Below the pieces are notes generated by a model. The model was not told the DNA's origin. It worked only from the letters and a program-made list of their open reading frames with translations, and searched no databases. From contig CAJINV010000002.1 in the NCBI GenBank assembly GCA_905178155.1, forward strand, positions 11,971,102-12,035,101: 64,000 bases of DNA. Reading direction: 5' to 3'. Below, piece after piece: positions 16,598-64,000 of this stretch. Position 1 is the stretch's first letter. Every line of letters starts with the position of its first letter. A program made the position numbers and the translations under genes. Origin of the DNA: Amoebophrya sp. A120 (Eukaryota; Protista; Dinoflagellata).

Positions 16598-18157
16598 ATG
16601 AAACTTTTATGCTTTCTCGGGCCGCCCGCATCCGGTAAAGGCAGTTACACGAAGCTTGTGCTCGAAACCCTCAAAAGGGTCGCGGCAAGGAGAGACCCTA
16701 CCTCGCAGTGGCACCACAGCGGGGCAGCGGAGCACGTTTTGGCGAAAGATGCAGAAGGCCAAGTTCTTAAGTCGAGCGGTTTCCAACATCATCCAAGCGC
16801 GAGGCTTTACAGGCACCATAATCTTCCTGTCCAACACTTCGAAAAGGTTGTCGCCTCGGACCTTATCAAGAAGGAGATGCGTGAGCAAACGGTCTTTGGC
16901 AAAGAGATGCAACCCTACATGGAACGCCACGAGCACGTATCAAATGTAAAAATGTCTGGGTCTGGAAGATTTCTAGGTTTGTCATGCATATTTTCCATGA
17001 CCCATGATGTCTGTGATGCATGCCGCAGCATCACAGATTTTTAGAGCGCTTTGTGATGCCTCCACAGCATCAGAAATGACCTCTCCGCGTAGCACAAACT
17101 GGAGTCCTCTTGCTGGTCATGCAATACAAATTTTCTCAGAATCCAGAGACAGCAGCACAAGTTGCAATCTTCCAGACCCAGACATTTTTGCATTTGATAG
17201 CACGTTCCCAGTGAGCTGATGGTGGAGACGCTGTGTGCGCACCTCGAAGAAATGGCCGCGCAGAGGAGAGGAGGTTCTTCACTTGAGAAAGATAAAAGTG
17301 TCATCAACCACCTCAACGTTTTGCTCGACGGTTTTCCTAGATCTGTGGACCAGGCAGAAGCGTTTCTAGCCAAGACGAAGAGGAGGCGACGGCTTGTTTC
17401 CGATCAGGAATTAGACGGAGAGATGGACGCCAACCCGCGTGGGGAATCTCGTCTTTCCCTTCGTTTTCTGCATCTCGATCTGAAGCGCGAGTGGGCCCGG
17501 GCAAAGGCGGTTGGGCGACTGGTCTGTCCGGATTGCGATTTTCCGTACAACGACGCAGAGGTACGATTGGACGCAGTAGATACAGCGAGTCAACAAAATC
17601 TTGCTCGCGCGCTTGAAGAGGACATTTATGATTATGACACTCCCTACACTGACACGCGAGAAGAAAAAGCAAGAAAGCGGGACAAGCAAGAAGAACGGCG
17701 CGTGTGGTCTGCCGACTTGCCGCCGGAACCCAAATGTGGGCGGAAACCTGGATGCGGCTACCCAAACAGCCTGATCCGTCGTGACAGTGCGGAGGTGTTT
17801 GACCACCGGTATGAAATCTATCTGAAAACCGAATTTCCGGTGGTGGAGTACTTCACCACGATGGCTGAGGCAGAGAAGCAGGAACTTGTAAATCGAAGCC
17901 GCAGAAAAATAGGAGCAGATGCAACAGATTTGAAAAATATGACCTCTACTGAGAATTGTCGTGATAGTAGCACTAGCACGAAAATCTCTTCCGTGAAAAT
18001 GACCGGCGGGTATCGGACGATGTGTGATGCGATTGTGAAAGAGGTGATGCATCTGCTTGATCTCGACCGTGACGAAAGTTGTAGCAACGAAACGGTTTAT
18101 CCTCTGGAAGAAGTGCAGAAAGAAGCCCATCTTGTGCTTGACGAGTGGGAGCAATAG
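16598..18157 (+). CDS. ADK: Adenylate kinase family protein (exons 16598-16937, 17205-18157; 430 aa)
   Basis: P-loop GPPASGKGS. The NMP-binding region SDLIKKEM...MERHEHV|PSELMV is restored across the introner, followed by LLDGFPRSVDQAE and a LID starting GRLVCPDC. Confidence 0.88.
16938..17199. mobile_element. Introner family A (262 bp) in ADK
   Basis: TIR TATCAAATG(T/C)AAAAATGTCTGGGTCTGGAAGATT; direct repeat GCACG/GCACG; removal restores the frame. Confidence 0.92.
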
Positions 18158-31100: not shown

Positions 31101-34100
31101 GGGGGAGCTATGCCGTAGAGTAGATTTGATAGCTCACAATCATTTTACCACCACTGACACCACGTCGGTATCTCCCCCGACTCCCTGAAGAGGAGTTTCG
31201 AAAGAAGTAGATAAACACCCGAGCGTGGCGGGTCCGCTGTGCCCCCCTTTACAGTAGCCTACTAGATCTCAGGCCCCCCTATACACTAGCCGAGATCTCA
31301 GAACCAGCGCCCCGTGCTGCCGAGTACCCCTCCTAAAAATGACCTCCTCCCCGCCCGGACACGGCGCCTGAATCCTGCAGCAGTCGTCCACGCACCATCC
31401 TGCGCAGCAGCAAGGTCCTTGCTTAGCCTGACGGGCATGGGCAGCAACTTCTCCATGTTCGCGGCAGAACCGGAATACGAAATCAGACTGGGGCAGGAGT
31501 TCTGGGAAGGGTTAAGTCCACCATGCCGCCGGTGGATTAAGCAGCTCGGGTAGGCTTCGGCAAACGGACACCAGGTCGAGGTTTCGCGAGCGTGGATGCC
31601 CCCCAGCTCGCCCAAGCCAGTAGCAACAAGCTCAATCGAGTCTTGTTCCCCAGCGCAATAGATGCGATCATGTAGGGGCGCACAATAGATGCGAGCTCAA
31701 GGCTTGGCAGCGCTGGGGGAGATGGTGTTGCCCACGACGCGGGAATATTCCCGCCGTGGAATCGAGAATGAACCTGGCGCCGAACGTTTTACGCTTCTGT
31801 GTTGCTCCCGCGTGGGCAGCGGTCCGCGTGCAGAAACGTGCTCTACTTGAGCAGCCTTGCCAATCGTGTATCTGTACCCCGCACTTTCGGTCATGTGTAA
31901 AGCAATCGCCGATCATGATCGCCAAATCCGGCGGTCTAGTGGATCAGCATTAAATCTCGCACCTCTTACCTTTAATTTGGATGTTTAAACATCACTTCAG
32001 GCTGGCGCTTGTCGCTTAGTGCCTCCAGTGAATGCATTCGTCCAGACAGTAACAACTGGTTTGCCGCAGGCTGCAGCTTTCTCTTGTAGTTGTTGGCCTG
32101 GCTGTACATCCCCGTTATAGTGGTTGCGAGTTGGAAGTTTGCGAGAATCAGAGTAGGGAATTGTTGGCAAAAAAAAGTGAGGCGTTGTTCAGTTGGCAAG
32201 TTGGCACAGTGTGGATGGTTGCGTTATTTTATTTCACCAGAGCTCCAGTTATTTTCCTTCACCAGAGATCCCTTCTAGTTATTTTCCTTCACCAGAGCTC
32301 CAGGTAGTTTATGCGTGATCCCTGGTTTTCCGACAGAGCACTGTCTTGCATGCGTCAGGAAAGCCGCCTTGGGTGCCACGGTACTTGAGGACGTGTTATA
32401 TGTCTCGGGCGCACGTACATACTAGCCTGCAGGGACGGCGGAGCCGGAAAAAAATTGCGAAGTATGTTTGGTGGCGATAACAGAGTTGGAATATAGTGGC
32501 CGGGAGATGATGGTGATGGCACTTAGGTGTCCGCCTGACCCACCCGCCCTGCGTCTCAGGCCATCTGCGGCTATGGCACAATGGGGGGGCAAAGTGTGTC
32601 GCATTTTGTTTAGCATGACAACTCTGGTGTGGGGACGTTTTTACTCAGGATAGAGCAGGGCTTTTCCGCATGGAAGAGCTACTTCCAGACGTGCGAAATT
32701 TTCCTGCCGTTTCTGTTCCAGAAGCAGATATGGATTGCAAAAATGTCTGGGTCTGGAAGATTGCAACTTGTCATGCTAAATCCGAATCATGCAGAAATCT
32801 GTGTTGCATGAGTGCCAAAAGCTGTCCACTTTCGACCAAGTTTGGAGGGAGTTTCTCATGCAGGATTGGCATGATAGAGACTTCGCAGAATCTGTCATGC
32901 GAAGTACCGCATTCCAGACCTCATGGGTCATGGAAAATCTGCATGACAAGTTTTCACTTTTCCAGACCCAGACATTTTTGCAATCCATAGCAGAGCAGCC
33001 AGAACAACAACCTGGCCTGGGACCGGAAGCAGCCGGAGGTGGCCGACCTCGTCGCCGTGCTAGAGAAGAACAAAGTTTTGCTCGAGCAGGACTTGAAAAA
33101 GTTGCTCATGGACCCGCTGGGCTTGTTGAGCTCGTTGCTCAACGAGGCAGCAGTCAATGCCAAGACACCGCCTCAACTTCCGATTGGGGGAAGCAACTCG
33201 GCTTCAGGTACTAGTTCTTCCACGGGCGGCGCCGACCACGCTGCAAGAGACCGAGAACAAACGCTAGACTCCTTTGCGCGACTTGTCCGGGAGAAGCATT
33301 CGAAGAGCCAACTCGGGAAAAATTTGGCAGGAGAGCAGGACGATGGCAGTGCCGAGATCGATGATGGGAGGAATTCAAAGCGAGGCAAAAGGTCAGCACA
33401 AGTAGATGATCATCAAGAGCAGTACGTTTTTAACCGAAATACGTTCTTCCACGTAGCCGCGACGAAGCAGGGCGCGTGGATCAAGTTCGTGCTCTATACG
33501 GGGGAATACGGCTGGAACCCGAGTTACTGTCCGGCGAATGTCGCGGAGAATTACGCGACCAGAAACTTCAACTACGAGCAAAACCTCGTGGGCAAGCAGG
33601 TGACGAGCGAGAGGGAGCTGGCAATCGGGAAGAACAAGCTTCACGCGTGCACCATTTTCGAGAACAACAACCACCTGCTACCCGGGCACGAGTTCAAAGA
33701 TTACTACTTTCTGGCAAACAACGAGGAAGTGTCCTTCCAGTTGTTTCTTCCGCGAACGAAAATAGGCACGCACAGCGGCGGATCCAACACGCGGGTCAAC
33801 TTAGACTTGAATTTGTTCAACGTAGCCGCGGAGAATAAACGCAGTCCAGAGGAAGCAGACGAGTCGACCGGAAGAAACACAAAGAAACGGAAGAAGAACA
33901 AGAAGCAAAAGAACAGCACCACTACCTCGAGCGACCGTGAACTGACGTCGTTTATCGAAAAGGAAATCACGAGTAATGCACTGTTGCAGCCGTTCGTCAC
34001 TGGGGAGTTCTACCGCGGACAAATCGTAGAAGTCGGAGCTGCATCTTCGTCACGTACTGGACTGGGAGTAGAAGTGGCAGGTGAAGAAGATATGTCATTT

Positions 34101-37880: not shown

Positions 37881-40277
37881 ATGGCAGAAACATTCCCTAG
37901 TAGTACTGGTGTTTTTTCTTCCTTAGCGGAACTTCCAGCACACCTGCCGGTTGTATTGGAGGGGCAACTACCGCTTTTGTTGCCGCTGAAGGTCGGAAGA
38001 AAAATGCTATACGACGCAGGAGCGGTGTTCCGGCGCAGCGTGGACGACGTTTCGCATTTGCCCGTGGCGGTGCAGGAACTTTTCGCCTCGGTGCCGAAGG
38101 GAGCACTGCCACCCGCGGAAATTTTGCTGACGCTCGGCTGGCTGTTTTTCAATATTCTGTTCAGCTACCTCGGGTTTTCCGTGCTGCTCCAGCCTCGAAG
38201 TAGACCAGAGGTCTCGACCGTGGACGACGATGCTTCTAAAGGTTCAGCTGCAGCCACTTCTGCCAGCGACTCTTCCAGGTCGGCGCCTCCTGGCAAGAAG
38301 AACCAGGGCAACTACACCAAGAATGGCACTGCGGAGGACCCCAACAAGTCTTCAGCGTCCGACATGTTCACCATTCCGCCTTTGATTGATCTGAGCGAGA
38401 CGAGAAGCAGGACGAACAACCTGCTATTCTTCCGCCGCACGATTTTCGCCCTGGTACTGGGCGTTGTGCCGATTTACGTCGTGTACAGTTCGGTGTTCCT
38501 GCAGCCGTTCCTGATCTTTCTGTTTTGCAGCTCCGTCGCGGTCCTGTACTTCCCCCCGGTGCTCACGACCCTGATCGCCATTGCCGTGCTGAGTTGGTGC
38601 CACCTGAACGTGATGGGGAGCATGGGCCGTGGCGCCGACGCCAACGCGGACGTGGCGGGGGCAGCTTCGGACCACACCGACTACAGCGACCCAAGCGGGA
38701 TTTTCATGCTGTTTTGCGTGCGGCTGTCGCAGGCCGCGTGGGAGGTCTACGACGGAAAGATGCTGGCGCGAAACCCGACCAGCCCCCTGTCCGCGAACCC
38801 GAAGGTGGACCAGTTTCGCCGCACGCGGGCGGTGGTGCCGCCGGAGAGACCAACGGTGTCTTGGATTCTGGTGTTTTCCGCCTTCTGCGTGTTCTTCCCC
38901 GGAATTTTAGTGGGGCCCTCCGGCGGCCTGCGCGATTTTGTCGACTTTCTCGACATCGCGGGCAGCTGCAACGACGGCAGTGCCGCCAAAATGAACTTGT
39001 CCCGTCGTCCCGTGAACAAGCTGAAGATCTTGAAGCTCATCTTCACCGCCCTTACGTGCGCTGCGATCTACCAGGCGGCCAACGTGGTCCTTCCACTGAA
39101 CCGGGACATCCTCGACAACTACTTGCCCACCCTGCCGGTGGTCCTGCGGATTCTGTACCTGACCTTCTCCGTGGACGGCTTTCGCTACAAGTACTACCTG
39201 GTCTGGTCTCTCTCCCTCGCGGCCTCAACCGCGAGCGGGTTCTCGACTGACGACAACGACAAAAACGCGCAGAACGTGGACATCGTGCGCGTGGAAACGT
39301 TATCCAATGCAAAAATGTCTGGGTCTGGAAGAATACGCGATTTGTCATGCAGCTTTTCCATGACACCCATGAGGTCTGGAATGCAGGACCTAGCATGACA
39401 GATTCTGTGCGATCTCTCTCATGCCTATTCTGCATGAGAAACCCCCTCCCGACTTGGTCAAAACTGGACGACTTTTGGTAATCATGCAACACAGATTTTT
39501 GCATGCTGCGGATTTAGCATGACAAGTTGCAATCTTCCAGACCCAGACATTTTTACATTTGATAAACGTCCACCGCCATGGCGGACATGCTGGTCGGGTG
39601 GAACACCAGTGTGAGCTTGTGGCTGAATATGGAAAGAAAAAAGTTTGTCACAGTCACTAACGTGCAGGTTTTGCATGATAAATTTTTCCCGCATCACAGG
39701 TTTTTCTTGTATTGCAGAAACACTAAGGAAATCCCTTATGAAGTTTGGCTGTGATGCATTTTTACGCATGACAGACAGTTTTGTATTGCAAAAATGCGCA
39801 TGAGTGATCGTGACGAACTTTTTTTGTTTGATACTCAAGTGCTCGGTGTTCGAACGTGTAATGGACAGCAGAGTGATCAACCGGTTCTTCCCCAAGTCAA
39901 AAAAACTGCTCGCGACTACCATCACCCGCATCTTCTCCGCGGTCTGGCACGGCTTCCGTTCGGGGTACTACTTGTTCTTCCTCTCAACCGTGCTGGTCAC
40001 CGTGTCCGAGGCCCACCCGGTGCTGCGGTGGCTGGAGGCGAAAGCGCCACTGGTCAAGTGGCTCCTGCATGCCATGTTCTTCAATGTGGTTGCGGTGCCC
40101 TTCGTTGTGCTGACCTGGCAAGACTCCTTGAAGGCCTGGAATTTGGTCTACTACTCCGCTCACATAGTCATGCTAGGCTTCATCGCCTCGCAGCAATTCT
40201 CGAAGTTCTCCAGCTGGAAGCTACCCCCGAGGGCGGGGGAGGAGATCAAGCAAGGGGAAGGGAAAAAGGAGAAGTGA
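37881..40277 (+). CDS. MBOAT-family lysophospholipid acyltransferase (exons 37881-39300, 39570-39627, 39839-40277; 638 aa)
   Basis: Multiple TM segments, FFPGILVGP and RYKYYLVW. The conserved WNTSVSLWLK lies on the 58-nt exon between two introners, followed by the catalytic-His motif SAVWHG and GYYLFF. Confidence 0.9.
39301..39564. mobile_element. Introner family A (264 bp) in MBOAT
   Basis: TATCCAATGCAAAAATGTCTGGGTCTGGAAGA...TCTTCCAGACCCAGACATTTTTACATTTGATA; direct repeat AACGT/AACGT. Confidence 0.92.
39628..39833. mobile_element. Introner family B (206 bp) in MBOAT
   Basis: TATGGAAAGAAAAAAGTTTGTCAC...GTGACGAACTTTTTTTGTTTGATA; direct repeat CTGAA/CTCAA; removal gives WLKCSVFERV. Confidence 0.92.
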
Positions 40278-46631: not shown

Positions 46632-47873
46632 ATGAAGGCAAATCTTCATAATGAGTCTCTGTCTCACGAAGAAGAAGAAGGACCCCTTTATGGAGATTCT
46701 GATTTGTCAATCCTGAAGATCATTTGCTTTATTTCCGCGCAGCGCTAACTACCCCCTTTGGCTGTCCCCCGACGGCCCTTCGACAGATCTGTACTAGGAC
46801 GACTGTGGACAACATCCCTCCGAATGAACAATCACCACATATGGAAGCTACACACGGACGCATCCGTTAATTTATTTGCTAGCATTTGCATCGTGCTTTT
46901 CCTTTTTGTCCCCGTTCCAACAGAGAAAATCACTCGGTAATGTCTTCGGTGCACCGTCGCCGTTGCTTCAAGATTGTCGGTTACGTGTTTTGTAGATGAA
47001 GATGAAGTGCCCTTCAACGAAAGGGTAATTTCGTGCCCTTCAACGACGGGACTATTGACGAAAAGGAGAAGGAGATCGTCGTCATCGAGGACGACGGAAC
47101 ACAAAGTGAGTCCGGGATCAGCAGCGGCGAGGAGCGACGGCGGCGGGAGTACGATAGGAAGAAGCGGGAGAAGAAGGGCCATACTTCAGCTTCGGAAGGT
47201 CGGGAAAACGGACAAAGTCGGCGCGCTGGTAGCCTCTCGGGTGGATCGCGGGACATCGTCGTCGTCCAGCAATGTCGCAGGCCCATCCGCCGTGCCGCCG
47301 TGCCGCAGTTCGTCCAGCAATGTCACTCCCACAGCCGCAGTTCGTTTCAAGGTGGTAGCTAGACCTGATTTATCTAGCTAGCCCAGCCCTTATGGCAGAA
47401 GAAGACGGAGGGCAGCACGGGCGTTTGCTACCTACTTTAGTATGTAGGTGTGGTTCTCGAGCAACTTCAGCGACTTTGGCACAGTATTCTAATCGATATT
47501 GGCACCACAGGTCTCGTCCGAGCTCGGCGCGCTATGGCTCTCCGACATACGATAGGGCCGGCGATTGGCCTCATGGATGCGCACGCGCAAGAAGACCTCG
47601 GTCGGCGATGTTAAGTAAATACCGCAGCGACGAGCGGGCAGCGTGGTTTTTGGCGGGGCTGCCATCTTATCTTGGCCAAAAACCTACCCACCCCCGCGGA
47701 CTCATTGGGAGAAGCCCAGCGAAGGCCCCGACTCCTCGTGTGGGCCTGTCCGAGTACGGCCTTTTCGGTCACCTTGTTGTAATGTTGCGTCCGTCATCCT
47801 TCATGTGCATGCTTGTATTATACTCTGTTTGCGCTGGTGAAGTAGAACTAGAACTGCCAGCATCATCTTCATC

Positions 47874-48555
47874 TTAGACAAGGAAAATCGCCGCAGTACA
47901 TGAAAAATCGACCACCCCCCTACCGCGGGGTGGCGGAGCAAGAGGCTGGCTTATGTAGACCTCATCGGGGCCGCGGCTTTGTTCGCTGGACTCCGCGCCA
48001 GGACGAGCGCCGCCTACTTTGGCGCCAGTTCTCAGTCACTGCGCCGAGAACTATCGCGATACCATTTCTCGCATGTTGCGGGCAGGTCATTCCGCACCCA
48101 GATAGCGGGGGCCGCCTCTTGGAAAGACGCACCGCAGGGAGCATTCACAGGCCCCCCTTTTGCCGAAAAAAAAGCACCCCCAAGAAGCACCCCCCTTGGA
48201 TTCCCTTTCCCCGACCTAAAATGGCTGATTTCCGGAGCCAAAAAAGGACCCCCCTTAAGCACCCCCCTGGAGGGGGCCCCCTGTACGCCGCCTGGGGCCC
48301 CGGTCGTTGTTTGGTCGGCCTAGTTTGGGAACGGGCTCCCGACTTCGCTGCGGCCGAGGCGAAGCAATTCCGCGGCAGGTACGCGCGCGGCCTTTCCACT
48401 CGGGAACACGTCGCGCCTGCGCCACGCACCTAGGTCTGCAAGAATTGGGCGAGCTGCTACGAGCTGAAACCCAGACAAATGATCTCGTCGCCCCACCACG
48501 CCGGCGAATGGGGGTGGTCGATTTTTCATGTACTGCGGCGATTTTCCTTGTCTAA
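47874..48555. mobile_element. MITE-like element (682 bp)
   Basis: ~46-bp TIR TTAGACAAGGAAAATCGCCGCAGTACATGAAAAATCGACCACCCCC; 5-bp direct repeat TCATC/TCATC; GC-rich interior with no recognisable ORF. Confidence 0.9.
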
Positions 48556-51745: not shown

Positions 51746-53805
51746 ATGGCGGGTGGCAAGAAAGCGATGAAGAAAGTCATGAAGAAGATCATGAAAAAAG
51801 CAGCACCTTCTACGAACTCTGCCTCGACTGAGACCACATCAAAGGCCGAGCAATCCAAACCGGCTGCGGAGAACAAAATGGATGTGGTGGAGGACAGCGA
51901 CAACGAAGAATCTTCCTCCTCGGCCGTGGCACCCGAGGAGCTTGCGGAACGCGCAGCGGAAGAGCTCGCGAAGAAAACAACAGGACCAAGTGCACCAAGC
52001 TCTAGCACAACTCCGGCGGCAAAAGAAAAGAAAATCGTCAAAGCATCTGACGACGAGAACGAGGGCAGCGCTGAAGAAACCGGGGACATCGAGATGCTGG
52101 AGGAAGAGGATCTGAGCGAGGATGAGGCAGACGCAGATGTAGCCGGCGCTAGTACGACCGCAAATGCAAAAAACACAGCGCAAGAAGGAGAACAAGATGA
52201 CGACGAGAACGTTGCTCCCGATGAGGAAAAGGTCGTGGTGGAGGAATTTGCAAAAGACCCCTACCTGCTGAAAGACGCGGAGTACATCAAAACGGACCCA
52301 AACTGGAAGAACAAGCAACGCACACTCTTGTTCAGCACGCGGGGCATCTCCGGCCAGCACCGACACCTGATTGACGATTTGAAGAAGCTGTTGCCGCACC
52401 ACAAGGTGGAATCGAAAGTCGAAAAGTCGCAGGATTTCACCGTAGTTAACGAAATCGCCGAGCTGAAATCGTGTAACAACGTGTGTTTTTTCGAAGCGAG
52501 GAAACACCAGGACTTGTACCTGCACGTCGCAAGGGTCCCGTGCGGCCCCACGGTGAAGTTTCAGGTGCTGAACATCCACACCTCCGGCGAGGTGCGACTG
52601 AGCGGAAACTGTCTCCAGTACAGCAGACCACTGCTCACCTTCGACGCACCGTTTGACGCCGTGCCGCACTTGAAGCTTATCAAAGAACTGTTTGTCCAGG
52701 TATTGTGACAAGGCTGCTGTCAAAATGTTTTTATTGCGGTTGATTATTTGGATGTGCTTGCGCAAGGTTTCGCGCTTTTTTTGTACTCATACATTGGATT
52801 TTTCTTTTTTGATTTTGAAAAAACTAAAAAAAAAATTCTTGACGTAAACATAAACAATACACAGACATTCGGAACGCCGCGGAACCACCCAAAGAGCAAG
52901 CCGTTCCACGATCAAGTGCTATCATTCTACTATGCGGACGAGAAGATCTGGGCCCGGCACTATCAGATTTCGCCTCTGACAGACGCCGACGCGAATGATC
53001 CCGAGAAGCAGACGCTAACGGTATCAAAATGAAAAATCCCCCCACCCCATATCAAAACGAAGTTTGTGATGCTGGATTTGCGTACACAAATCAGATTGGT
53101 CTTGCTGGAGAGGACTGCAGGCCCATACTAAGCCTGAGCGGAGAGGTTTCGGGCTAGGCTCTTAGCATGAGAAACGTCTGCGCTGTAGGCCCAACAGCAT
53201 CACAAACCGCCTGCATAAAGCGGCGGCTGTCTGTGGAGTTGCCTTCTTGCAAGACAGAGATGATTTGTGGTCGCAAATCAGCATTGCAAATTTTCTGCTA
53301 CGTACCTTTTCGATATGGGGAGGGGGGATTTTTCCTCACAATAAACGGAGATTGGGCCGCGTTTCGTATTGGATCCGATTTGGATCCTGCAGGGGAGCTT
53401 CTCAGGCCAGAAAATTTACCACAACAACAATTTCAGCACCCCCACCGCGGTGCGCAGGGAAAACAAGCAAAAGCTCGGAGTGCGGGCAAAGGTACGTGAT
53501 TTGCTTTTAGAAAGATATTTGATATGGACGTTAACGTATGTTTCTTTGCGTGATAGTAGATGATGATGATGATGATGCGTGTAGTAGTGCTTTTCTTGCG
53601 ATGTCAGCGGCGACAGCCGGCTTGGTGCTACTCATATGGCATGGTGATGCTCATGGTCGACTGCATCGATATGCCTGTTTATCAACTTTTTCTCAAAAAC
53701 CAAACGCAGGTGCGTGCAGAGCAAGACGAACAGACCCGACTCACGAACAAGAAGCTAGAAAGAGCCGCGGATCCGACTGAAGCAATCTTCGAGGAGTATT
53801 CATAA
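51746..53805 (+). CDS. BRX1: Ribosome biogenesis protein BRX1 (exons 51746-52699, 52865-53021, 53349-53491, 53710-53805; 449 aa)
   Basis: WKNKQRTLLFSTRGI, FFEARKHQDLY, GNCLQYSRPLLTFD and FGTPRNHPKSKPFHD. The Brix signature LTEIGPRFVL appears only after the introner is removed. Confidence 0.93.
53022..53343. mobile_element. Introner family C (322 bp) in BRX1
   Basis: TATCAAAATGAAAAATCCCCCCACCCCATATC...GATATGGGGAGGGGGGATTTTTCCTCACAATA; direct repeat AACGG/AACGG. Confidence 0.93.
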
Positions 53806-54386
53806 GTCTGTATGGAATATTATGAATTTTTCCGAGCACAGTGAGGGAGCTGGACTTAGTATCGCTGAGGTTCTTTATTTCTGACGCCAGAAAAGAAGCA
53901 TCCGAAAGGATTGGGGACACTGCGGATTGTTTTAAGTGCGCATGCATGATCATCTCGATTATTACGCTCGATGTCTTATCGCCATCGATCGGATTCGGAC
54001 GGCCGACGGACGTCGTCGCACCCTTCTAAAAAAACTGCTCCTACAAATCGTGTTCGACTAAATTGAGTTTCACTTGCAAGTATTTGATAGTCATGTACTC
54101 AAGTACACGCAGCTTCCTCGTCGGATCGTAAAACAGCAACAGTGCCGTTGTATCTGATGGATCACGACGAAAGCTCCATGCAGTCACAGTAAGTCGTGTC
54201 GCGGGTCTCAATGGTCGTCTTACTTTGTCGTATCATACCCTTTGATCACGATCAAGATCTTCATCCTATGCCGCCATATCAGAGAAAGTTTTCTGCTAGT
54301 GAGGGCACCAAGCGCAAGCCAGTAGGTGCCGTGAGTAAAAATCCGAAGTAAGCCTTTCAAGCATCGACCTTCCGACATTAACCAAG

Positions 54387-55427
54387 ATGCCGACCCCAGA
54401 TTTTCTCGCCGACATAGAGCCTCTGCGACACATGATGTTGGGGTTGGCCCACACACCACCACCGCATTCGATGAACCATGACTTCGGGCATGTGCAAGAC
54501 CCTCTGCTGTGCGCGCACGATCTCGGGCAGTCTTGCTCCTCTACCGCGTTCGCTGCAATAGGAGCAAGAGAACAATCCGAACTACCAGGAGGGTCAACAC
54601 AGCTTGCAGCGCCGACAGTTCTATCTGCATCTTCACCTGTTTCTTTATCAGGGATTCATAAAGCGGGCGACTTTAATATTATCAGTGGCATGACGGAGAA
54701 CCACACCACTCGCACTCAAGTTCCGTCTTCGTTTCTCGAGGTCCCAGAGCCGGACGGGACACTTCTACCGGCGTGGAAAATGTTTCCGGCAAAAACCGCC
54801 GCGGCCGTCGGACCTTTCGTCCCCGCAGCGACGACGGTGACGGCGGCGGAAAAAACGGCGATCCCGCTTTTGCTCGCGTCCTCATTTCTGGTCTCCGCCG
54901 GGTCGTCGTGCATCTCGTCTTCCTCCGGGAGAACCGGTGCTCGTCTTCTGGCACCAGAAAACTACTACGCAGCGTCTGTGTCATCTGGGAGTGCGTCGGA
55001 ACAAGAGGATCTTGTTCACGAAGTGTTTCGTGATCAAAACGGTTGTAGTAAAAATGCCTGTTCTGTACAGAGTCCATGTCGTGGACAAGGAAAGACAACA
55101 CCCACGACCAGGTGGACCTCTTTTGCCACCTCCAGTCCGCACGACGCGCCCGGCGCCGTTCCCAACGAGCTTTCCACTCCCGGGACAACCCAAGTGCCAG
55201 GCGTCCCTTCTGCAGCAGATACCCACCAGAGTGAACGATGCTGTGTGGGGAGCACGCGGAACCACTACAAGCCCTGTCCACGGGGGTTCGAGGAGGCGGG
55301 CGAGGCGAGGTGCCGGCCGCAAGTAGGCGTGTACGAAGGCCCGTGCCAGGAAGTGCAGGACTTTCACGGATTTAACTCGGCCATGTATCGGGCCTGGGAA
55401 GAAAGGTGCGAAGCACGCTTCTTGTGA
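54387..55427 (+). CDS. Protein with a C-terminal CPW-WPC-like domain
   Basis: CPRGF..C.P..VYEGPC..DF...WEERCEARF follows the CPxGW..C..YxGPC..F..W...C..WPC pattern but lacks the final WPC. An SFLE motif lies upstream. Start uncertain. Confidence 0.65.
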   Translation: MPTPDFLADIEPLRHMMLGLAHTPPPHSMNHDFGHVQDPLLCAHDLGQSCSSTAFAAIGAREQSELPGGSTQLAAPTVLSASSPVSLSGIHKAGDFNIISGMTENHTTRTQVPSSFLEVPEPDGTLLPAWKMFPAKTAAAVGPFVPAATTVTAAEKTAIPLLLASSFLVSAGSSCISSSSGRTGARLLAPENYYAASVSSGSASEQEDLVHEVFRDQNGCSKNACSVQSPCRGQGKTTPTTRWTSFATSSPHDAPGAVPNELSTPGTTQVPGVPSAADTHQSERCCVGSTRNHYKPCPRGFEEAGEARCRPQVGVYEGPCQEVQDFHGFNSAMYRAWEERCEARFL

Positions 55428-55828
55428 AAATGGTGCACCATATTGATGGCCTCTAATTCTTAGAATGCTGTGAACAACAAAAGCCACAAAGTGGGTTGAA
55501 TTACGGTCAAACGAAATCGTCGGACGCACTCTGTTGAAATCGCGAAGGTGTAGACAGGAGAGCACCACAGAGTCACACACATGCTTCACATTTCAAGCAG
55601 CTTCGAAACCTGCACTGCTTTCGCGACACTGTTCGCCTTCTTATCAGACAATGATGGTTCGTGCTTCTCTTTCTTCTCATGATTCCGATTCGTCCTGTTG
55701 GTCAAAAGTTTTCCTACTTAATTCATCGTGTCATCGGGTTTGAGGTTGTGCATCGGATCGTTTCATCGTCTTCATCATACACATAGTCTGAACCTTCAAT
55801 TCTCTTGCACCTGCAGCTGCATCCTTAG

Positions 55829-58800
55829 TATGCAAGAACGTCCGTAGTTTTGTTACCTATTTTATTAGGATGAAAAGTCATCACTTTCAGGATATTTTTG
55901 AGGGCGGCATCATTCTCGGCCGAAAAATTTTAATGGTTTTGCCGAAAAAAAGCGACGCAGGCGCCGGCCATTTTGATTGGGGGCGCAAGGGCGTCGCTGT
56001 TGTTTGGGCAAAAACCGACGGCGCACCAGGCCCCTCGAGGCGCGCCCAGCCCGCTTTTATTTTGATGCCGGGCGATGTTTTTCGGTGCAGGTTCATCGGG
56101 GTTTCTGGTGCGCCAACCCAAGTGTGGCGTGGTCCCGACGCTGCGGTGCAGCGAGTGGGCCCACCGCCAAGGGACGGCGCGCGCCGGCTTCAGCCCGTGT
56201 TCTCAGCATCCGCAGGCGCGGCCTACTTCGGTTGAATCCCATAAAAAGACAGGGGCGACGCGACGAGGCCCCGGAAACCTCCTCCGGACGCGCCACCCAC
56301 CGGCAAAAGCCCGCGGCCTTTCTCCTGGCCCCGCCCGTTTAATTTGGGCCCCCCCGGCATGCCCATGCAATCAAATGCCCCCCCGGCCTAATCGCACTCC
56401 TTCCGAGCCACCCAAGCGGCCCGGGCCCGGCTTGGTTGCCTGCCTTTGCTGCACCTCGCGCCCGGCCCCGGGATGTGTCTGTTCGGCATTCGCGGAGGGC
56501 CTTCTTCCGGCCCTGCATTCACCTGCGGGGGCCCGGCCGGAGCGCTAGCCTGCGCTCGATGGCTAGGTAGCGCCCCAAGCAAGCGGCCGTTGGCCCGCCT
56601 TCCTTTGGGGGGGCCTGCGCGAACGATATGCGCCGGCGCGCCGCCGCCGCCCCCGCTTCCTTGTCGAGCCGGCCCTAGGTCTGGGAAAGCTATCGCGCAG
56701 GCCCTGCGCGCTTCCAAGGAAAACCGCGGGCGCCACACTCGCGACGGGCCCGAACGGCGTTGCAGCTGCAATGCGCGCACGCCCGCCGGTGTTGTCTGCA
56801 CTCGCATAACAAGCGGCAGACAGCTACACCTGGCGGCCCGCCCGGTTTGCCGGGCCCCCCCTTCTACAGTATGTCGAACACCTGCAAGGCGGGCCCCCGC
56901 CCGTCAAGCGGGCCGGCTCGGTGCGCGGGGCGGAAGCAAAAATCAGGGCTATTGATGCTTCGGCGCAGGGGGCCAGCCTTGGTGGGGTCGACCGTCCCGG
57001 GAAGCGGCCCAGTGCTTGGTGGGGCGCGCCGCAATGTTTTCGCCGGCCCGTCGAAAAAAAGAAATCTGCCAAGGCGCGCCGAAACGAGCCCCCGACGGAT
57101 GGAACGCGGGGCGCAGGGCGAAGGGCTAGCTTTTGGCGCCCGCCTTGTTTTGCCGGTATGGATCTGGGCCAGGTTGCGGGCCCTTTGGGCCCGTGTTCTT
57201 CGGGTCCGCCCTCCACATTGGCCGGGACGCCCGCTGGGGCTTGGGGCACGCACGCACGTAGCGGGGCCCCCCCGGCGGAATCGCTCGCCCGGGCCGGAGG
57301 AAGAGAGAGATGGGCTGCGCGGTGGGAGCGGGAGCCGGTCGCGCAGCTCAAAGGCGCGTGAGCCCGTTGTGGGGCGGCCGGGGCGGATAATATTGCAGGC
57401 AACCTGCCCGAGCGGCCCCCGCGCTATTCCCCGCCAAGCCTTTCCTCTCGCAGGTAAAGGCAGCCGAGGCGAGCAGGATTCGGGAACTCGAATTGCCCGA
57501 CGCGTCTTGCGTCGCGTGGTGGGCCCTTTTTTTCGTGCGCGCCCCCTAGCAGCCTTTCCGCCTGCCGCTGGCTTGGCCAGGCAGCGCGGCGGCGCAGGCT
57601 TGGCCCCCGTTCTTGGGCGAGCCGGCTAGAGGGGGGTCGGGATGGGGGCCCCCGGCAAGGGCCCGGCCATTGCCGGGCGGCCCCGTCCGCCAGCTAGCAG
57701 TCCGCACGGCTGCCCGGGCAAGATCCGTCCGGCAGGCGGCCGGGCGGGTGGCGCCCCGGGCCGGGCAGTGCGCCGGCCCCCGGGGCCCATGTGCTGCCTC
57801 TCATTTCCGAAGGCGCGCGGTGGGGCTTCGCACCGGGGGGCTTTGTTACATAGTTTTTGTGTTGCGCCTGGCCGACCCCGACCTCCGACCGAGCCTGCTG
57901 GCTATGCGGGCGCCCGCGAAAAGCCGCCGCAGTTCGCAAGGCTTCCAAAGTCGCACGACTATCGGCCGCGCCGGCCCGGCATGGGCCCGCCCCTTATTTT
58001 TTGCGCACTTTTGCGCGTGACTCCACCGCCGCGCCGGGCTACCAACCTAGGCGGGCCGTGTGTCAGCGCAGCTTTGGAATGTGCCGGGCCGCCCGATTTT
58101 TCCCCCCTTCCTTGTGCAATAGCTATGAGGGGTCGGCAGGCAGCACGGTTTGGCTTCGGCTGCGTAGCAGGCAGTGTGCGACGAAGGTGGGCGCCCCCTT
58201 GTATCTCCGCCGCCCGTCCGGGGTTCCATCCTCCGCAGGAGCCCGGAGTCCGCCGGACGCAGCCGGGCCATGTCATCGAGGCCGGGCGCCCCAAGCCCTC
58301 GCCCGCCCCCCATCCCGGATTGCAGAGCCGAAGCCCTTTCTGTTCGTTCCCGGCAGCTGGCCCGCCGGTGGTGTGCCGCCCCGCCCCATCCTCCTCTGCT
58401 TCCGCGCGCGCTGCCCCCCGCGCCCGAGTTTTTGTTTGTTGGCCGCAGTTTCATCGCTCTTCGCGCGAAGATTTTCGGCGTTTTGCCGGACTCTGGATTT
58501 GCTGTCTTCAGGATAAAATCCTGAAATGCTTGATAAGTGATCAAAAGTTTTTGATCACTTATCAAAAGTTCTTGATAACTGATCAAAAACTTTTGATCAC
58601 TTATCAAGAACTTGTGATAAGTGATCGAAAACTTTTGATCACTTATCAAGCATTTCAGGATTTTATCCTGGGAGCCCGGATTTTCGCCCGACGGCCCAGA
58701 AGGATTTTGTCCTGAAAGGGCGCACGCCCGAACATGCGCCGGCCCTTCCCTAAGGGCTGACGCGCACCGCGCGCGCGCCACCGCAAGCGCCGCGGCGCCC

Positions 58801-61357
58801 GAAATCGCGACGCGCAAAAGGCAAGCCGCGCCCGGCCACAACAAGGGGCCCAACCGGTGCCAAGTGGGTCTGCGAGCCACCGGGCGGCCGCGCCGGGGGA
58901 GTTGGGAAGCGAGTCGCCTTGCGGCCGCGCCGCGGTCGCGCGGTTGTTTTGAACACCCCCGGGGCCTTTTTTGTTCTTGCTTCCTTGCGCTCCGCGGCGC
59001 CCCAATCCTGCGCGAAAGGGCGCCGCGGCGCCATCCTCGGTAGAGCTCGTGTCGGCACACAGGGGGGCAGAGGCCTGCGGGCGCGTTTGGGTGGGGCCCC
59101 TATCTCCAGGGCGTTGGGCCCTGACGTATTCCTGCACGGGCGCGCGCCGCCAAGGGCCCGCCCCACTCACTTACTCTGTTTTTGGCAGCGGACCAAGTGG
59201 CGGCGCCCCACTCGCAGGCAAGGCGCGTCGCCAAGCTGCGCCCGGAGGATGGCCACCCCTTGCCCCCTGCGACCAGCCCGCCCGCCCCGGCCGCCGCACG
59301 CACCAACAGGCCGCTGGCTTGCCCGCCGGATCGAAGCGCCCCGAGCAAAAGCGTCGGCCTCGGGGACGAGGGGGCGAGAGACCAGGCCGTTTGGGCCCAT
59401 TCCATGTTGGCGCCCCCCCCCCCTTATCGAAACCCCCCGCCAAGGAAGGGCGCCAGTGTTCTACCCGGCCAGGATGGGGCCGGCGCCTTCGAGGCAAAGC
59501 GGGCGGGGCCCGGTCCCTTCGGGCCCTTTTTGGTACGCCCCAAGTGCCGGCGGGCGCGTCCGCCCGCAATGCCCCCGCCGGGCGGCCGCCCCCCGCACTT
59601 TCGATGGGACGGCACGCACTTGGCCGCGGGGAATTTCGAAAAGGCCCGGGGCCCGGGCGTATAGCGCGGGGCGGACGGGGGCCCGCCACCAGGCAGCCTG
59701 ACCGCGCTCGCGATACATAGGCAAGGCTGGCAATGGATGGAGGATCTTGGGCGGCAGGGCTTGCCGCAGATCAGCGAAGCGGGCCGGCGGCTGTTTTATT
59801 TTGCAAATCTGGTCCCGGGCAAATAACAACCGAACGGGGCCGCGCCCGCGGCGCCTTTGCTGCATACTGCCCCGGCAACCGGGTCGGGCGCGGTCTTCCG
59901 GCTTTTGCTTGGGTTTTCCGGCTGCGCTGGCAGGGGCAGCCGGGGCGCGTTCTGACGGCCTGGCCTCATCTTGGTAGGCGCCCGCTTTTCCGGGGCGTTT
60001 TTTTCCAAGGGCGGGGCCTTCGCGCCGCCGGCTTCGGGCCCCCACTTTCGCTCGGGCCCAAGGCGCCTAGCGTTCGTCGCCTGCTGTATCTTCCGGCGCC
60101 CCGAGGGCTCGGCGGCCCCGGCCTGTAGTCCCCTGCTTGCGTGCTTCTTTCGCGGGGCCCCCTTGGACCGGCCTTGGGGATGATAGGTATGTGGCGGGGG
60201 GCTTGCTCCGCGGGAGGGTGCGCAACTGGCCGGCACCTTGGGCCCCGGCCGGGCGCCCGCTTGTCTGGAGCACCCTCGGGCCCTTTCGGGCTGCTGGTGC
60301 TTTGTTTTCTTTGCAGATATTCTGGCCCACATCTCGGCAGCATGCAGCGGTCGGAAGTAGGCCACTCGGCCGCGGCCATTTCCACTCGGCCGCGGCCATT
60401 TAGGCATGGCGGCGACTCGGCCCTCCAGCGAGCGACCCCTCCGAGCGGCCTGCGTGGCGCTACCGCCGGTTGCTCTGGTGCGTGTCGACGAGCGCGGTGC
60501 GCTTTATTCTGTTCGGGGCCGGTGTGTTTTGATAATGCGCTCCCCCTGCTTTTGCCCTTCGCGCCCTCGAACCATATGGCGGCCGCGCCACCGCCCTGCC
60601 CATTCTCAATGAGGCGGCGCCGCAGCCGTCGCCCTCGACCTTTTCCCCACGCCAGCCCCCTCCCAAGGAGCGCACAAGTAGGAGGCCCGTCTGTTTCGGC
60701 CGGCCGGCCTACGCCCTTCCCCAGGGGGCCGCCCGGCCCTGTTCGCTTTTGTTGTTCCCTTTTCGAACGCGGGCGGGGGGGCCGTGCCTGTAGGGTGGCG
60801 TCGCTTTTTTGGCTGGCCATTGGTTTCGGCGTGGGCCCACCGCGAATCTTTTGCGCAGACACGCCGGGCATTTTTTTTTACAAACGTGCCGCCCCAACCT
60901 TGTGGGCGCGCGCCTCCAGTGCCGGCGCCGAGGCACTGTGGTCCCCGTCGTTTGATTGCGCCAGGGCCTGCGCCCCTTGGCGAGCGACACACCGGGCACG
61001 GCCAGTCGTGCGCGGCATCTCTGGCCTACGCGCTGTCCTTGTCTGCATTTCCAAGCGCGGCAGACTTCCGTGACGGTGCTCCTTGAGGAAAATAGTGAGG
61101 CGGGTGGTTTCCTGCACCCTTTTGGGCCAAAGGATGGCTTGGGGTTGCGGAAGTGGGGCGCGAGGCCCCACACAAAATAAAAAACGCGTCAGCAGCACGT
61201 CTGCAATGTCGCCGTCGCAGTTGCAGCAGCCGTTTTGCGCATGAAAGAAGTCAACTTTTTTTACTCGCAAACATGGCAAAGGTTGAAAAATATCCTGAAA
61301 GTTATAACTTTTCATCCTAATAAAATAGGTAACAAAACTCACGGACGTTCTTCCATA
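55829..61357. mobile_element. 5.5-kb GC-rich TIR element, apparently non-autonomous
   Basis: ~70-bp TIR TATG(C/G)AAGAACGTCCGT(G)AGTTTTGTTACCTATTTTATTAGGATGAAAAGT...TTTCAGGATATTTTT; 8-bp direct repeat ATCCTTAG at 55821-55828 and 61358-61365; sharp GC shift inside the element. Confidence 0.92.
58509..58670. repeat. 162-bp AT-rich palindrome made of three nested hairpins
   Basis: 80-bp arms with 3 mismatches; the unit TTGATAAGTGATCAAAA..TTTTGATCACTTATCAA occurs three times. Confidence 0.95.
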
Positions 61358-62976
61358 ATCCTTAGCGATCCTCTGCACTAGTATTGACGACGTGTTAGCT
61401 TGTTTTGGAAAGGAAAAGGTCAACGCAAGTAGTTCGCATTTGCTTGAAACCAAAATCGATTCGCGTGATGCATGAGCGTTTTCGTCTCGTAGCGTATCCA
61501 AGATGCGTAGCTCGGACAATTCGGATCATGTTGCCTTTGCTTGATTTCTCCCTTGATGTTGTTTGTCGATAGATTGGATCGGTGTAGGTAGTGGTAGAGG
61601 AGCAAAGTCGATGTGTTGTTGCTGCTGCAGTACTTATGCAGTGCACGCAAACTACATCGATATCGAAGGCGTGTTTTTGAACCCCAAAGCGAAACTCGAA
61701 AATTGGAAGTGTGTCGTCGTTGTCTCGATTGTCAAATACCGAAATCGCAAAACCAAACGTCAGGGTCGTGGCACCGCTCGTGGAATTACGAGTAGCGGAA
61801 AAATAAGATAAAGATAACAAACAAGCGCGTTCATTATAGTCCGTAGATACAACTTCAAGTTGCGCTCGCAGTGTCCTTCAAATTAATAGATTAGAAAGAA
61901 GGTAGTTCCTTGTGGTTGTGTCGTGACATTTACGTATAGGAAGTCGGTAACTGACTTTTTTTGCGTGTAGATCTTCACTCAGAAACAACCAAAGGCGCTT
62001 CGACCTCAAGTGAGTAGAAAAATGAAAATAAGCTGAAAGACGAAGCACGTCTTCCATTTGATTGACTCATGCACGCATTTTTCCATTGCGCTGAAAAATC
62101 TTAATCCACGCAACCCGTTTTTTTTTCACAGCTCGGTCGTGGAGGCGTTATTTTGTCAAAGAAACGCGGAAATTTCGTTTCGCAATACAAGGGGGGCGGA
62201 TTGAGTTTTGATCGAGACGAGACTAGTATTCATACGAAATGACCCTCGCTTTACACCAGCGCGTCGAGCAGTGGCACCTCTCCCAGGACAGGGTGGGAAG
62301 GGCCAATGTGTTGCAGGTACATGCTAGTACTACTTGGTTGTTTTTTTTTGATAGAGAAAAAAAAGCAAATGGAAATGCACTAGCAGAAGAAGTCACTGCA
62401 GGTGCAGTGCATGCTAGCTCTTGGAATTGAATTCAAAACAGGATCCCTCGCAGCTGACCACAGAGTTTCAGCATGGAGAGCCTGCTCCATCGCCAAGTGA
62501 CCTGATCGTCCACCCACTGGTAACCGATCGAGAAAACGCGACGCTACTCATCATCGACTGGATGTGATCCAATATCATGCATCAAACAAGTTCTAGGGAA
62601 TGGGCAATATGTATCAAGATGTAAGTTCTGTATTGCATGTGAGCCCAGTGGTTGTGTGCTATGTGTGGTGGTGGTGTTTTCAACTTGGATAGTCCGCTGG
62701 CAGTCAACGGGTTCACTTTCCGGCACACTATCGCGCTAACTATCAAAACGCGATCGCCCGAGCAAACCACGGATACTACCATCCGAATGGCACGCAGGGA
62801 ACCTGCCAGTGCGTCAAGGCCTGTCCCCGCTGCTGGTTTTACGACAACCACAACTTTGCGGAGTATCGCATGCGTTGTAGATTTATTTTGTCTCTTTATT
62901 CAGAAGATCAAGATTGACTTCAGACGAGATATACTAACGTTGTGCCAATTTTTGTCGGTTTCGTCCCCGTGATGTT

Positions 62977-63285: not shown

Positions 63286-63811
63286 AACGAATACTTTTAC
63301 TAAAGCGCCAGTTGTCTAGGTCCAGGTGCGATTCGTGGAATTCATTTGTGTGTTTTGGTTTTGGTTTGCTTCAGTCATGATTCATTCAGCGACACTGTAA
63401 GTGTTTGTCACACGACCAGTTACAGTGTGGTCTCGTCATCAAACTCTTTATCTTTTTGCTATCCATTGCGGAAAAAATACGAGAAAGTGACGCTGTGAGA
63501 CCCAGAAATCAATGGACTCCGCCCGTGCGGACTCGTTTCAGGTTTCCCGGGAAACCTTCGGCTTAGCTCGTGCTAAAGTGTGTTGCAACGCAACTTAAAA
63601 CGCGGCGCGCGCATGGACTCCGCTGCTGTTTGTGGGCACAACCGCGCCGCGTCTGTGTTGCAGTCTCTTGTGCCCAAAGCGCCGCAGTCGGCTGCGGATT
63701 GCGAGCAACCTGGCGGCCCCGGCAAACCGGCGCACATTTTCGCCTGGCCTAACTTGGGCCGCTTCAGACGATCTTCCGCCGGTGGCACGGCCTCGCTTTG
63801 CCGTTTTCGGA

Positions 63812-64000
63812 AGAGGATTCCTCAGAGGATTCCAAAATCCTCTCAGGAATCCTCTGGCCCAATTTGGGCCGTCTTCCGCGCCCTTCCCCCGATGGCACTG
63901 CCCCGATTTCGGGAGAGGTTTCCACAGAGGATTCCTCAGAGGATTCCTCAGAGGATTCCAAAATCCTCTCAGGAATCCTCTGGCCCAATTTGGGCCGTCT
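63812..64000. repeat. Two 63-bp direct repeats, each an imperfect hairpin of AGAGGATTCCTC units, in a GC-rich block running off the window
   Basis: 63812-63874 = 63938-64000 (AGAGGATTCCTCAGAGGATTCCAAAATCCTCTCAGGAATCCTCTGGCCCAATTTGGGCCGTCT). Confidence 0.85.

What the first reader, a model, noticed from the sequence alone, without database searches (positions are those of the whole stretch)
55829..61357. 5.5-kb TIR element with a triple-hairpin palindrome at its midpoint
Seen: 70-bp TIRs, an 8-bp target duplication and two very GC-rich arms of 2680 and 2687 bp flanking a 162-bp AT-rich palindrome. The palindrome axis (58589.5) is within 4 bp of the element centre (58593). It can fold as one long stem or as three hairpins, and it shares TTTCAGGAT with the inner TIR. 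The arms next to the palindrome are not inverted copies of each other, and no protein is recognisable. Inference: the centred position suggests function, such as a central organising site for end synapsis (like the phage Mu central gyrase site), an origin or hairpin-resolution site, or an old fold-back dimer whose arms have diverged.
Basis: partly seen in the sequence, partly recalled or inferred. Interest (0 to 1): 0.8.

Follow-up and report, generated by a model that had tools for sequence, protein, structure and literature searches.

The report
Transposon with T-to-C rewritten interior
A 5.5-kb transposon with no recognisable gene, likely from an Amoebophrya-type marine parasite, has an interior that is short of T after C or G on both strands, likely through T-to-C mutation aimed at such elements, while its two ends and an end-like hairpin at its midpoint stayed AT-rich, likely because the mobilising protein needs them.

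Summary
The element is real: exact 8-bp target duplication, 71/72-bp terminal inverted repeats (TIRs), and a 162-bp palindrome 3.5 bp from the centre. The host is Amoebophrya-like.

T after C or G is depleted on both strands (0.21-0.25 against 0.46-0.49 in the rest of the window), while T after A or T is near normal. The TIRs and palindrome are spared. A context-dependent T-to-C model reproduces the arms' trinucleotide spectrum. A partial second copy differs mostly by transitions (11 of 13). An unrelated 682-bp TIR element in the window shows the same signature.

The arms show no coding relic and are not inverted copies, so the fold-back dimer is rejected. Each half of the palindrome resembles the inner TIR, oriented like two element ends fused tip to tip. 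My best reading is a non-autonomous TIR transposon with a hypermutated interior and a retained, end-derived central binding site.

No full second copy was reachable, so centring as a family trait is untested. The direction and chemistry of the mutation are inferred.

The parts
55821..55828 (+). Left copy of the 8-bp target-site duplication (ATCCTTAG)
55829..55899 (+). Left TIR, 71 bp; AT-rich, keeps T after C/G (0.70-0.73); TTTCAGGAT at 55885
55900..58508 (.). Left arm: non-coding, GC 0.69, T after C/G depleted on both strands; single-copy depth in run X1
58509..58670 (.). Central palindrome, axis 58589.5: six alternating 17-mers flanked by two cap hairpins built on TTTCAGGAT; each half resembles TIR positions about 20-65
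58697..58718 (.). Third, eroded copy of the cap motif outside the perfect palindrome (one T-to-C difference in the 9-mer at 58709-58717)
58671..61285 (.). Right arm: non-coding, GC 0.68, same signature and same strand skew as the left arm
60173..61336 (.). Stretch shared with a second, partial copy in run X1 (about 1.5- to 2-fold depth); 11 of 13 isolated substitutions are transitions
61286..61357 (-). Right TIR, 72 bp
61358..61365 (+). Right copy of the 8-bp target-site duplication
47874..48555 (.). Unrelated 682-bp TIR element (66-bp TIR, 5-bp duplication) with a milder form of the same signature and an inner-TIR 9-mer repeated around its midpoint

Best explanation
This is a TIR element with an 8-bp target duplication and no recognisable gene, likely moved by a transposase encoded elsewhere, whose arms lack T after C or G on both strands, likely because an element-restricted A:T-to-G:C (mostly T-to-C) mutational process rewrote them. 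Shown: the anatomy, the composition signature and its sharp limits, the absence of a coding relic at the power of my tests, and the absence of inverted symmetry. Inferred: (1) the direction and type of change, about 23% of sites if the ancestor had ordinary non-coding composition, or more if the arms are at equilibrium; (2) the TIRs and central palindrome escaped because copies that lost them stopped transposing, helped by repair of one palindrome half from the other; (3) the palindrome derives from two element ends fused tip to tip without their outer ~19 bp, as at the junction of an old head-to-tail dimer, which would put it at the midpoint and leave it uncleavable; it would now serve as an internal binding site for the mobilising protein. 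The chemistry is unknown. Thymine modification, as reported on repeats of core dinoflagellates, is my first candidate.
For: Signature: T/(T+C) after C/G is 0.21-0.25 in the arms and 0.46-0.49 in the rest of the window; after A/T it is 0.45-0.56 against 0.50; both strands. Odds ratio 0.29 (p 4e-83) against 0.88 in the rest and in GC-rich coding stretches. It holds along both arms in 150-bp steps and drops out at the palindrome. Simulation from the window's own non-coding DNA: trinucleotide divergence falls from 0.43 unmutated to 0.072 with context-free T-to-C and 0.008 with 5'-context T-to-C; fitted on the left arm it predicts the right arm (0.012, sampling floor 0.006). Second copy: 11 of 13 isolated substitutions are transitions and 9 of 11 have a 5' C/G; these contexts disfavour the reverse model (log-likelihood -36.2 against -29.4). 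Both one-mismatch copies of the motif at the centre differ by T-to-C. The 682-bp element shares the signature (odds ratio 0.50, p 1.7e-4). Centre and TIR: an 11/13 match and a 9/9 match occur together in 1 of 4000 TIR shuffles; alignment p 0.009-0.047; the motif lies 63 nt from the axis and 56-57 nt from the element ends, in end-to-end orientation. All 7 T-to-C-tolerant motif hits are in the TIRs (2) or the centre (5). Both arms have the same strand skew.
Against: No full second copy was found, so neither conservation nor centring of the palindrome could be tested. The 11 polymorphisms have no known polarity, come from collapsed contigs, and fit a context-free model (-27.9 to -28.7) as well as or better than my context model (-29.4). 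Spectrum alone does not fix the change: a T-to-G model fits the left arm equally (0.0080 against 0.0084), and a reverse C-to-T model reaches 0.011 if the ancestor was 80% GC. The arms are not detectably direct repeats, as a head-to-tail dimer predicts (global z 1.3-2.1; 1 of 8 segments best on the diagonal), although controls detect 20% transversions plus 5% indels per arm. The TIR-palindrome statistics were chosen after seeing the match, and both sequences are AT-rich. Only 2 of 8 TIR-bounded stretches tested show TIR motifs clustered at the midpoint. 5-formyluracil, the likeliest mutagenic product, was not detected in three core dinoflagellates (bioRxiv 2023.11.30.569493, passages), and no sequence preference of 5hmU was found in Breviolum (PMC11071213, passages).
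Confidence: 0.45

Rival explanations
1. Same rewritten arms, but the midpoint position is itself under selection: an AT-rich cruciform at the exact centre organises a supercoiled loop that brings the two ends together, as the strong gyrase site does in phage Mu. No dimer ancestry is needed.
For: Centring within 3.5 bp (p 0.0015 after the fact) with arms that do not align. The 682-bp element has an inner-TIR 9-mer twice within 55 bp of its centre (31 of 5000 simulations). In Mu the middle position was best for replication (PMC10052514, passages).
Against: One full copy only. No size variants to test. 6 of 8 TIR-bounded stretches tested lack a centred motif cluster. The Mu site binds a host gyrase; no such factor is shown here.
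Confidence: 0.17
2. The palindrome is a later, independent event (insertion of a small palindromic element, or a local fold-back duplication) that fell at the centre by chance and is AT-rich only because it is young.
For: Wholly palindromic mini-elements of about 105-165 bp are listed for Amoebophrya: 3 of the 40 rows I saw (of 58) are labelled palindromic (PMC12130899, supplementary file 8). The six 17-mers are nearly identical.
Against: No flanking duplication longer than 2 bp at four candidate boundaries. Depth over the palindrome is near single-copy in run X1. It resembles this element's own TIR. An eroded third cap lies outside it. Chance centring is 0.0015.
Confidence: 0.17
3. The arms are captured GC-rich foreign or host DNA whose composition was never altered here; the TIRs and centre are the only native parts.
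For: Direction cannot be read from one copy, and horizontal transfer is a recognised cause of odd transposon composition (PMC9099904, passages). A reverse model fits the spectrum nearly as well.
Against: No codon periodicity. No match in phage records or in the rest of the window. The same signature is in an unrelated element, and two other contigs that touch the arms continue in GC-rich sequence of similar style (30 letters each). Polymorphism contexts disfavour C-to-T after A/T.
Confidence: 0.13
4. The palindrome is a replication origin or hairpin-telomere resolution site, and the element has an extrachromosomal phase.
For: A long, stable palindrome with internal repeats resembles such junctions in outline (recalled, not tested).
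Against: No resolvase or replication protein is recognisable. Depth equals chromosomal single-copy depth and no joints were listed. The arms are not inverted copies. The exact 8-bp duplication points to cut-and-paste integration.
Confidence: 0.05
5. An old fold-back (inverted) dimer whose arms have diverged.
For: Equal arm lengths and a central palindrome.
Against: Local score 56.5 against null 57.3, where simulated dimers score 102-4324 up to 20% transversions plus 5% indels per arm. Global z -0.4 to 1.4. Base counts of the left arm differ from the reverse complement of the right arm (p 2e-8) but not from the same strand.
Confidence: 0.02

Closest known systems
Non-autonomous TIR transposons and introner elements of Amoebophrya (PMC7789003 passages; PMC12130899 passages and supplementary rows)
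   Same: TIRs, target duplication, no transposase gene. TAT...ATA termini as in several short elements of this window.
   Different: 5.5 kb, 8-bp duplication rather than the 5 bp seen for the window's short elements, apparently intergenic, low copy, GC-rewritten arms, central palindrome. The two short elements tested lack the signature (dose 0 and 0.15).
Repeat-induced point mutation (RIP) of fungi (PMC7296669, search listing and start of abstract only)
   Same: Dense, context-dependent transitions on both strands, confined to repeat-type DNA (inferred here).
   Different: RIP is C-to-T and makes repeats AT-rich; here the inferred change is T-to-C, depends mainly on the 5' neighbour and makes the element GC-rich. 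No enzyme or sexual-stage trigger is known here.
5-hydroxymethyluracil marking of repeats in core dinoflagellates (PMC11572971, PMC11071213, passages)
   Same: A thymine-directed process enriched on transposons in the sister lineage.
   Different: In the passages seen it is a silencing mark, not a mutagen. Reported context is TA/TC or none. I found no report of it in Amoebophrya.
Phage Mu strong gyrase site (PMC10052514, passages)
   Same: A cis site at the midpoint of a transposable element.
   Different: The Mu site binds host gyrase and its position was tested. Here the site is a TIR-like palindrome and no function is shown.
Mutator-like elements with extra internal TIRs (PMC3310237, abstract and section 3.1)
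   Same: Non-autonomous elements carrying TIR-related sequence inside, with no target duplication around the internal TIR.
   Different: There the extra TIRs are mostly tandem at the ends or solo, with 100 bp or more of similarity. Here the resemblance is short, doubled into a palindrome and centred.
Tec elements of Euplotes (PMC3464196, PMC4157794, passages; central recombination site recalled, source papers not held)
   Same: Multi-kb TIR elements of an alveolate.
   Different: [quoted passage not shown] None of this is seen here.

Membership tests
Non-autonomous TIR DNA transposon | Terminal inverted repeats | tested here: met
   71/72 bp, 94%
Non-autonomous TIR DNA transposon | Target-site duplication | tested here: met
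   Exact 8 bp
Non-autonomous TIR DNA transposon | No transposase gene | tested here: met
   0 of 76 frames reach a Pfam cut-off; 0 of 24 match PHROGs; no periodicity
Non-autonomous TIR DNA transposon | Other copies or an empty site | tested here: inconclusive
   One partial second copy of the right 1.16 kb in run X1; no full copy, no empty-site joint
hAT superfamily | 8-bp target duplication (recalled) | tested here: met
   also true of Zisupton (PMC12730594), so not diagnostic
hAT superfamily | Terminal consensus (T/C)A(A/G)NG and short TIRs (recalled) | tested here: not met
   Ends read TATGC and TATGG; TIRs are 71-72 bp
hAT superfamily | hAT transposase in a cognate element | not testable with these tools
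   No genome held
Amoebophrya introner | Lies in a gene and is spliced out | tested here: inconclusive
   Upstream ORF ends at 55427 and its contig in run X3 ends at 55576; next outside ORF of 80 aa or more starts at 62661; no contig joins across the element. Probably intergenic.
Fold-back dimer | Arms are inverted copies | tested here: not met
Head-to-tail dimer relic | End-to-end junction at the midpoint | tested here: inconclusive
   TIR-like motifs in junction orientation, 63 against 56-57 nt; p 0.009-0.047
Head-to-tail dimer relic | Arms are direct copies | tested here: inconclusive
   z 1.3-2.1, not significant; same strand skew
Mu SGS-like central site | Midpoint position required for end synapsis | not testable with these tools
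   Needs size variants or an assay
RIP | C-to-T transitions giving AT-rich repeats | tested here: not met
   Arms are GC-rich; reverse model disfavoured by polymorphism contexts
RIP-like repeat-targeted hypermutation (works like) | Context-dependent change confined to elements, both strands | tested here: met
   shown as composition, not as polarised mutations
5hmU-marked repeats | Modified thymine on the element; TET/JBP enzyme in the host | not testable with these tools
   No modification data or genome; supplement of PMC11572971 unreadable

The most novel reading that the evidence does not exclude
Amoebophrya-type parasites have a 'reverse RIP': a process, possibly driven by thymine modification, that converts T to C in the interiors of larger transposons until they are GC-rich and stripped of coding information, so that only protein-bound sites survive. 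In this element the survivors are the TIRs and an end-derived palindrome held at the midpoint to pair the ends. This could also explain why few transposase genes are recognisable in these genomes.
Probability: 0.3. Interest if true: 0.85.

Novelty: new variant of a known kind. Interest (0 to 1): 0.62.

Why it matters
If the direction holds, this is a transposon-targeted mutational process running opposite to RIP and to CpG decay, in the sister lineage of organisms that modify thymine on repeats. It would make a long-open question testable: whether dinoflagellate-type thymine modification leaves a mutational scar. It may also bear on the report that no transposase was found in one Amoebophrya strain (PMC7789003, passage). 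Practically, AT-rich islands inside rewritten elements would mark the cis sites that transposition needs, and here they point to a central site. If the arms are simply captured DNA and the palindrome a chance event, this is an ordinary non-autonomous element.

Tried and rejected
No whole genome is held for this window, so copies could not be collected directly.

Exact-pattern scans found no relative: viral contigs, metagenome contigs, prokaryote genomes. Distant blastn against phage records found nothing. The cap motif alone matched 18 viral loci, but similarity stayed within 31 nt around the pattern, so these are chance hairpins.

Rfam gave 6 sub-threshold microRNA-hairpin matches on the palindrome, rejected as generic stems.

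Protein searches: one weak Pfam hit (zf_Rg, E 0.033, 14 bits against a cut-off of 25.5) rejected. A search with one arm frame found nothing at E 1e-5. The Atlas gave no answer. The purine/pyrimidine coding test gave 5.7 and 5.8 against null means 5.4 and 5.3; controls scored 14.8-17.9 with T-to-C only but fell to 4.8-13.4 with 8% transversions and 1% indels, so an old gene cannot be excluded. Arms did not align to the rest of the window under T-to-C-tolerant scoring.

Expression: no RNA holder was listed. Contigs of runs guessed to be RNA cover flanking genes (X3) but not the element (X3, X4, X5), and raw-read run X9 laid 1 read on 50-64 kb. This is no evidence on expression.

In one search the optimiser did not explore the 3' factors; one search repeated the fit properly and the 3' effect was small.

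Five look-ups of earlier findings by words or place and one by sequence returned nothing. Five element motifs were not found in the supplements of PMC12130899. Two Tec papers were not held. PMC9423628 passages gave the thymine oxidation series but nothing on T-to-C mutagenesis, so that step is recalled only.
Full report
OBSERVATION. The element spans 55829-61357. The 8-bp duplication ATCCTTAG is exact on both sides, and the TIRs are 71 and 72 bp with four differences. The palindrome is 58509-58670, axis 58589.5, against an element centre of 58593. Its core is six 17-mers in alternating orientation between two cap hairpins. The best predicted fold is one long stem. Contigs of run X1 reproduce most of both arms without a difference and at about 42-fold depth, like the flanks. 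That run may be the window's own source, so it checks accuracy, not independence.

HOST. Neighbouring frames match Brix and CPW_WPC families, a contig of run X3 skips introns including a repeated element at 53017-53343, and the best named homologue of the Brix frame is from Amoebophrya at 84% identity. The host is therefore taken to be Amoebophrya-like. The element lies about 400 bp past the end of the CPW_WPC frame and appears intergenic.

THE ARMS. Their GC content of 0.68-0.69 has an unusual source. The fraction T/(T+C) after C or G is 0.21-0.25, against 0.46-0.49 in the rest of the window; after A or T it is 0.45-0.56, against 0.50. This holds on both strands of both arms. The odds ratio is 0.29 (p 4e-83), against 0.88 in the rest of the window and 0.88 in GC-rich coding stretches. 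Only the five 1-kb bins covering the arms, of 64, have a ratio near or above 2; the next highest is 1.33. The TIRs and palindrome keep T after C/G at 0.70-0.80 (odds ratio 10.7 against the arms).

MODEL OF THE SIGNATURE. Starting from the window's own non-coding DNA (GC 0.45), T-to-C change with rates set by the 5' neighbour (A 0.42, C 0.93, G 1.05, T 0.07) reproduces the trinucleotide spectrum. Divergence falls from 0.43 to 0.008 on the training arm and 0.012 on the other, with a sampling floor of 0.006; about 23% of sites change. Context-free T-to-C reaches only 0.072. Two results limit this. A T-to-G model fits the left arm as well (0.0080) and the right arm slightly worse (0.0147). A reverse C-to-T model reaches 0.011 from an 80% GC ancestor. 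The spectrum shows a neighbour-dependent loss of A/T; it does not by itself give direction or type.

SECOND COPY. From 60173 to 61336 depth rises about 1.5- to 2-fold and contigs differ from the window. Fifteen substitutions are listed. I dropped two that lie in an indel cluster at a 20-bp tandem duplication. Of the other 13, 11 are transitions, and 9 of those 11 have C or G on the 5' side of the pyrimidine. For comparison, 85 of 155 differences across 50-64 kb in the same run are transitions (p 0.026). Log-likelihoods of the 11 contexts are -36.2 for the reverse model, -32.2 for CpG decay, -29.4 for my forward model and -27.9 to -28.7 for context-free models. So they argue against the reverse direction but do not prefer my context model. 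Polarity is unknown, collapsed contigs show only some differences, and 9 pieces were not shown.

GENERALITY. An unrelated 682-bp TIR element at 47874-48555 has the signature at about 0.6 of the dose (odds ratio 0.50, p 1.7e-4). The start of a high-copy repeat at 63481-63800 trends the same way but is not significant (odds ratio 0.66, p 0.10). Two short intron-type elements show dose 0 and 0.15.

NO GENE. None of 76 stop-to-stop frames of 50 aa or more reaches a Pfam cut-off, 0 of 24 match PHROGs, and the long frames are no longer than chance at this composition. There is no three-base periodicity, even in purine/pyrimidine coding, which transitions do not alter. The test loses power beyond about 8% transversions with 1% indels.

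NO FOLD-BACK. Transition-tolerant local alignment of the left arm with the reversed right arm scores 56.5 against a null of 57.3; simulated dimers score 102 or more up to 20% transversions and 5% indels per arm. Both arms are pyrimidine-rich on the same strand, and their base counts match on the same strand but not inverted (p 2e-8). Direct similarity shows a weak trend only (z 1.3-2.1; Stouffer 1.68 over 8 segments).

THE CENTRE. The shared 9-mer alone is weak (399 of 5000 shuffles). But the 17-mer unit also matches the TIR next to that motif at 11 of 13, and both matches together occur in 1 of 4000 shuffles. Alignment of TIR to half-palindrome gives p 0.009-0.047, and 2 of 344 AT-rich window pieces score as high; these tests were set up after seeing the match. 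The motifs face as at a junction of a right end with a left end, 63 nt from the axis against 56-57 nt from the real ends, and the outer ~19 bp of the TIR have no clear counterpart. All 7 T-to-C-tolerant copies of the 9-mer lie in the TIRs or within 58506-58717, one of them outside the perfect palindrome. There is no duplication longer than 2 bp at the palindrome's borders, and its depth is near single-copy. The 682-bp element repeats an inner-TIR 9-mer twice near its midpoint (31 of 5000 simulations), but the other 6 of 8 stretches tested do not show such a cluster.

MECHANISM. I commit to a non-autonomous cut-and-paste element whose interior was rewritten by element-restricted, mostly T-to-C change, and whose TIRs and end-derived central palindrome were kept because mobilisation needs them. 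I put the mutational regime at about 0.7, a retained role for the centre at about 0.55, and the dimer-junction origin at about 0.35. Thymine modification is the first candidate for the chemistry: 5hmU is enriched on repeats in core dinoflagellates (PMC11572971 and PMC11071213, passages). Against it, 5fU was not detected in three species (bioRxiv 2023.11.30.569493, passages), Breviolum 5hmU had no sequence preference, and the mutagenic step is recalled, not read. Adenine modification or an error-prone polymerase acting during transposition would give the same pairs and are not excluded.

KNOWN SYSTEMS AND NOVELTY. TIR-bounded elements without transposase are described in Amoebophrya (PMC7789003 passages; PMC12130899 passages and 40 of 58 table rows), including short palindromic families. 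Extra internal TIRs are known in Mutator-like elements (PMC3310237, abstract and section 3.1), and a central site in phage Mu (PMC10052514, passages). The superfamily cannot be assigned. Five full-text searches (listings and starts of abstracts) showed no report of T-to-C hypermutation of transposons or of a centred TIR-derived palindrome; the library lacks most subscription papers, and the unread supplement of PMC11572971 may say whether Amoebophrya has the enzyme. The element is a new variant of a known kind. The mutational process, if confirmed on polarised data, would be new.

VERDICT. Observation confirmed; interpretation partly supported; interest 0.62.

Noticed in passing
window 47874-48555: 682-bp TIR element with the same T-after-C/G depletion and an inner-TIR 9-mer repeated around its midpoint; the preceding ORF (47392-47877) takes its stop codon from the TIR.
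   Followed up: partly
window 63481-64000: Start of a high-copy repeat (mean depth 2347 against about 42) with GC-rich stretches and two palindromic 63-bp blocks 126 bp apart; cut by the window end. The best target for a polarised mutation spectrum.
   Followed up: partly
window 53017-53343: Very high-copy TIR element that is skipped in a contig of run X3, with non-canonical ends: an introner inside the Brix gene.
   Followed up: partly
window 16938-17199, 32729-32989, 39301-39564, 23137-23392: Family of about 260-bp TIR elements with TAT...ATA termini; 5-bp duplications found for the first two.
   Followed up: partly
window 20572-26500: Near-identical 3015-bp tandem duplication with the window's single N at 23522, at its junction; may be an assembly overlap across a gap.
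   Followed up: partly
window 1686-7286 (+): 1866-codon open frame with repeats of about 170-185 codons and no Pfam match.
   Followed up: no
window 54339-55427 (+): CPW_WPC-domain frame (E 3e-9) just upstream of the element.
   Followed up: no
window 60362-60401: Exact 20-bp tandem duplication in the right arm, largely absent from the second copy.
   Followed up: partly
window 56923 and 58961: Two other contigs of run X1 match a short stretch here and continue for 255 or more letters; the 30 letters shown look GC-rich in the same style, hinting at more such elements.
   Followed up: no
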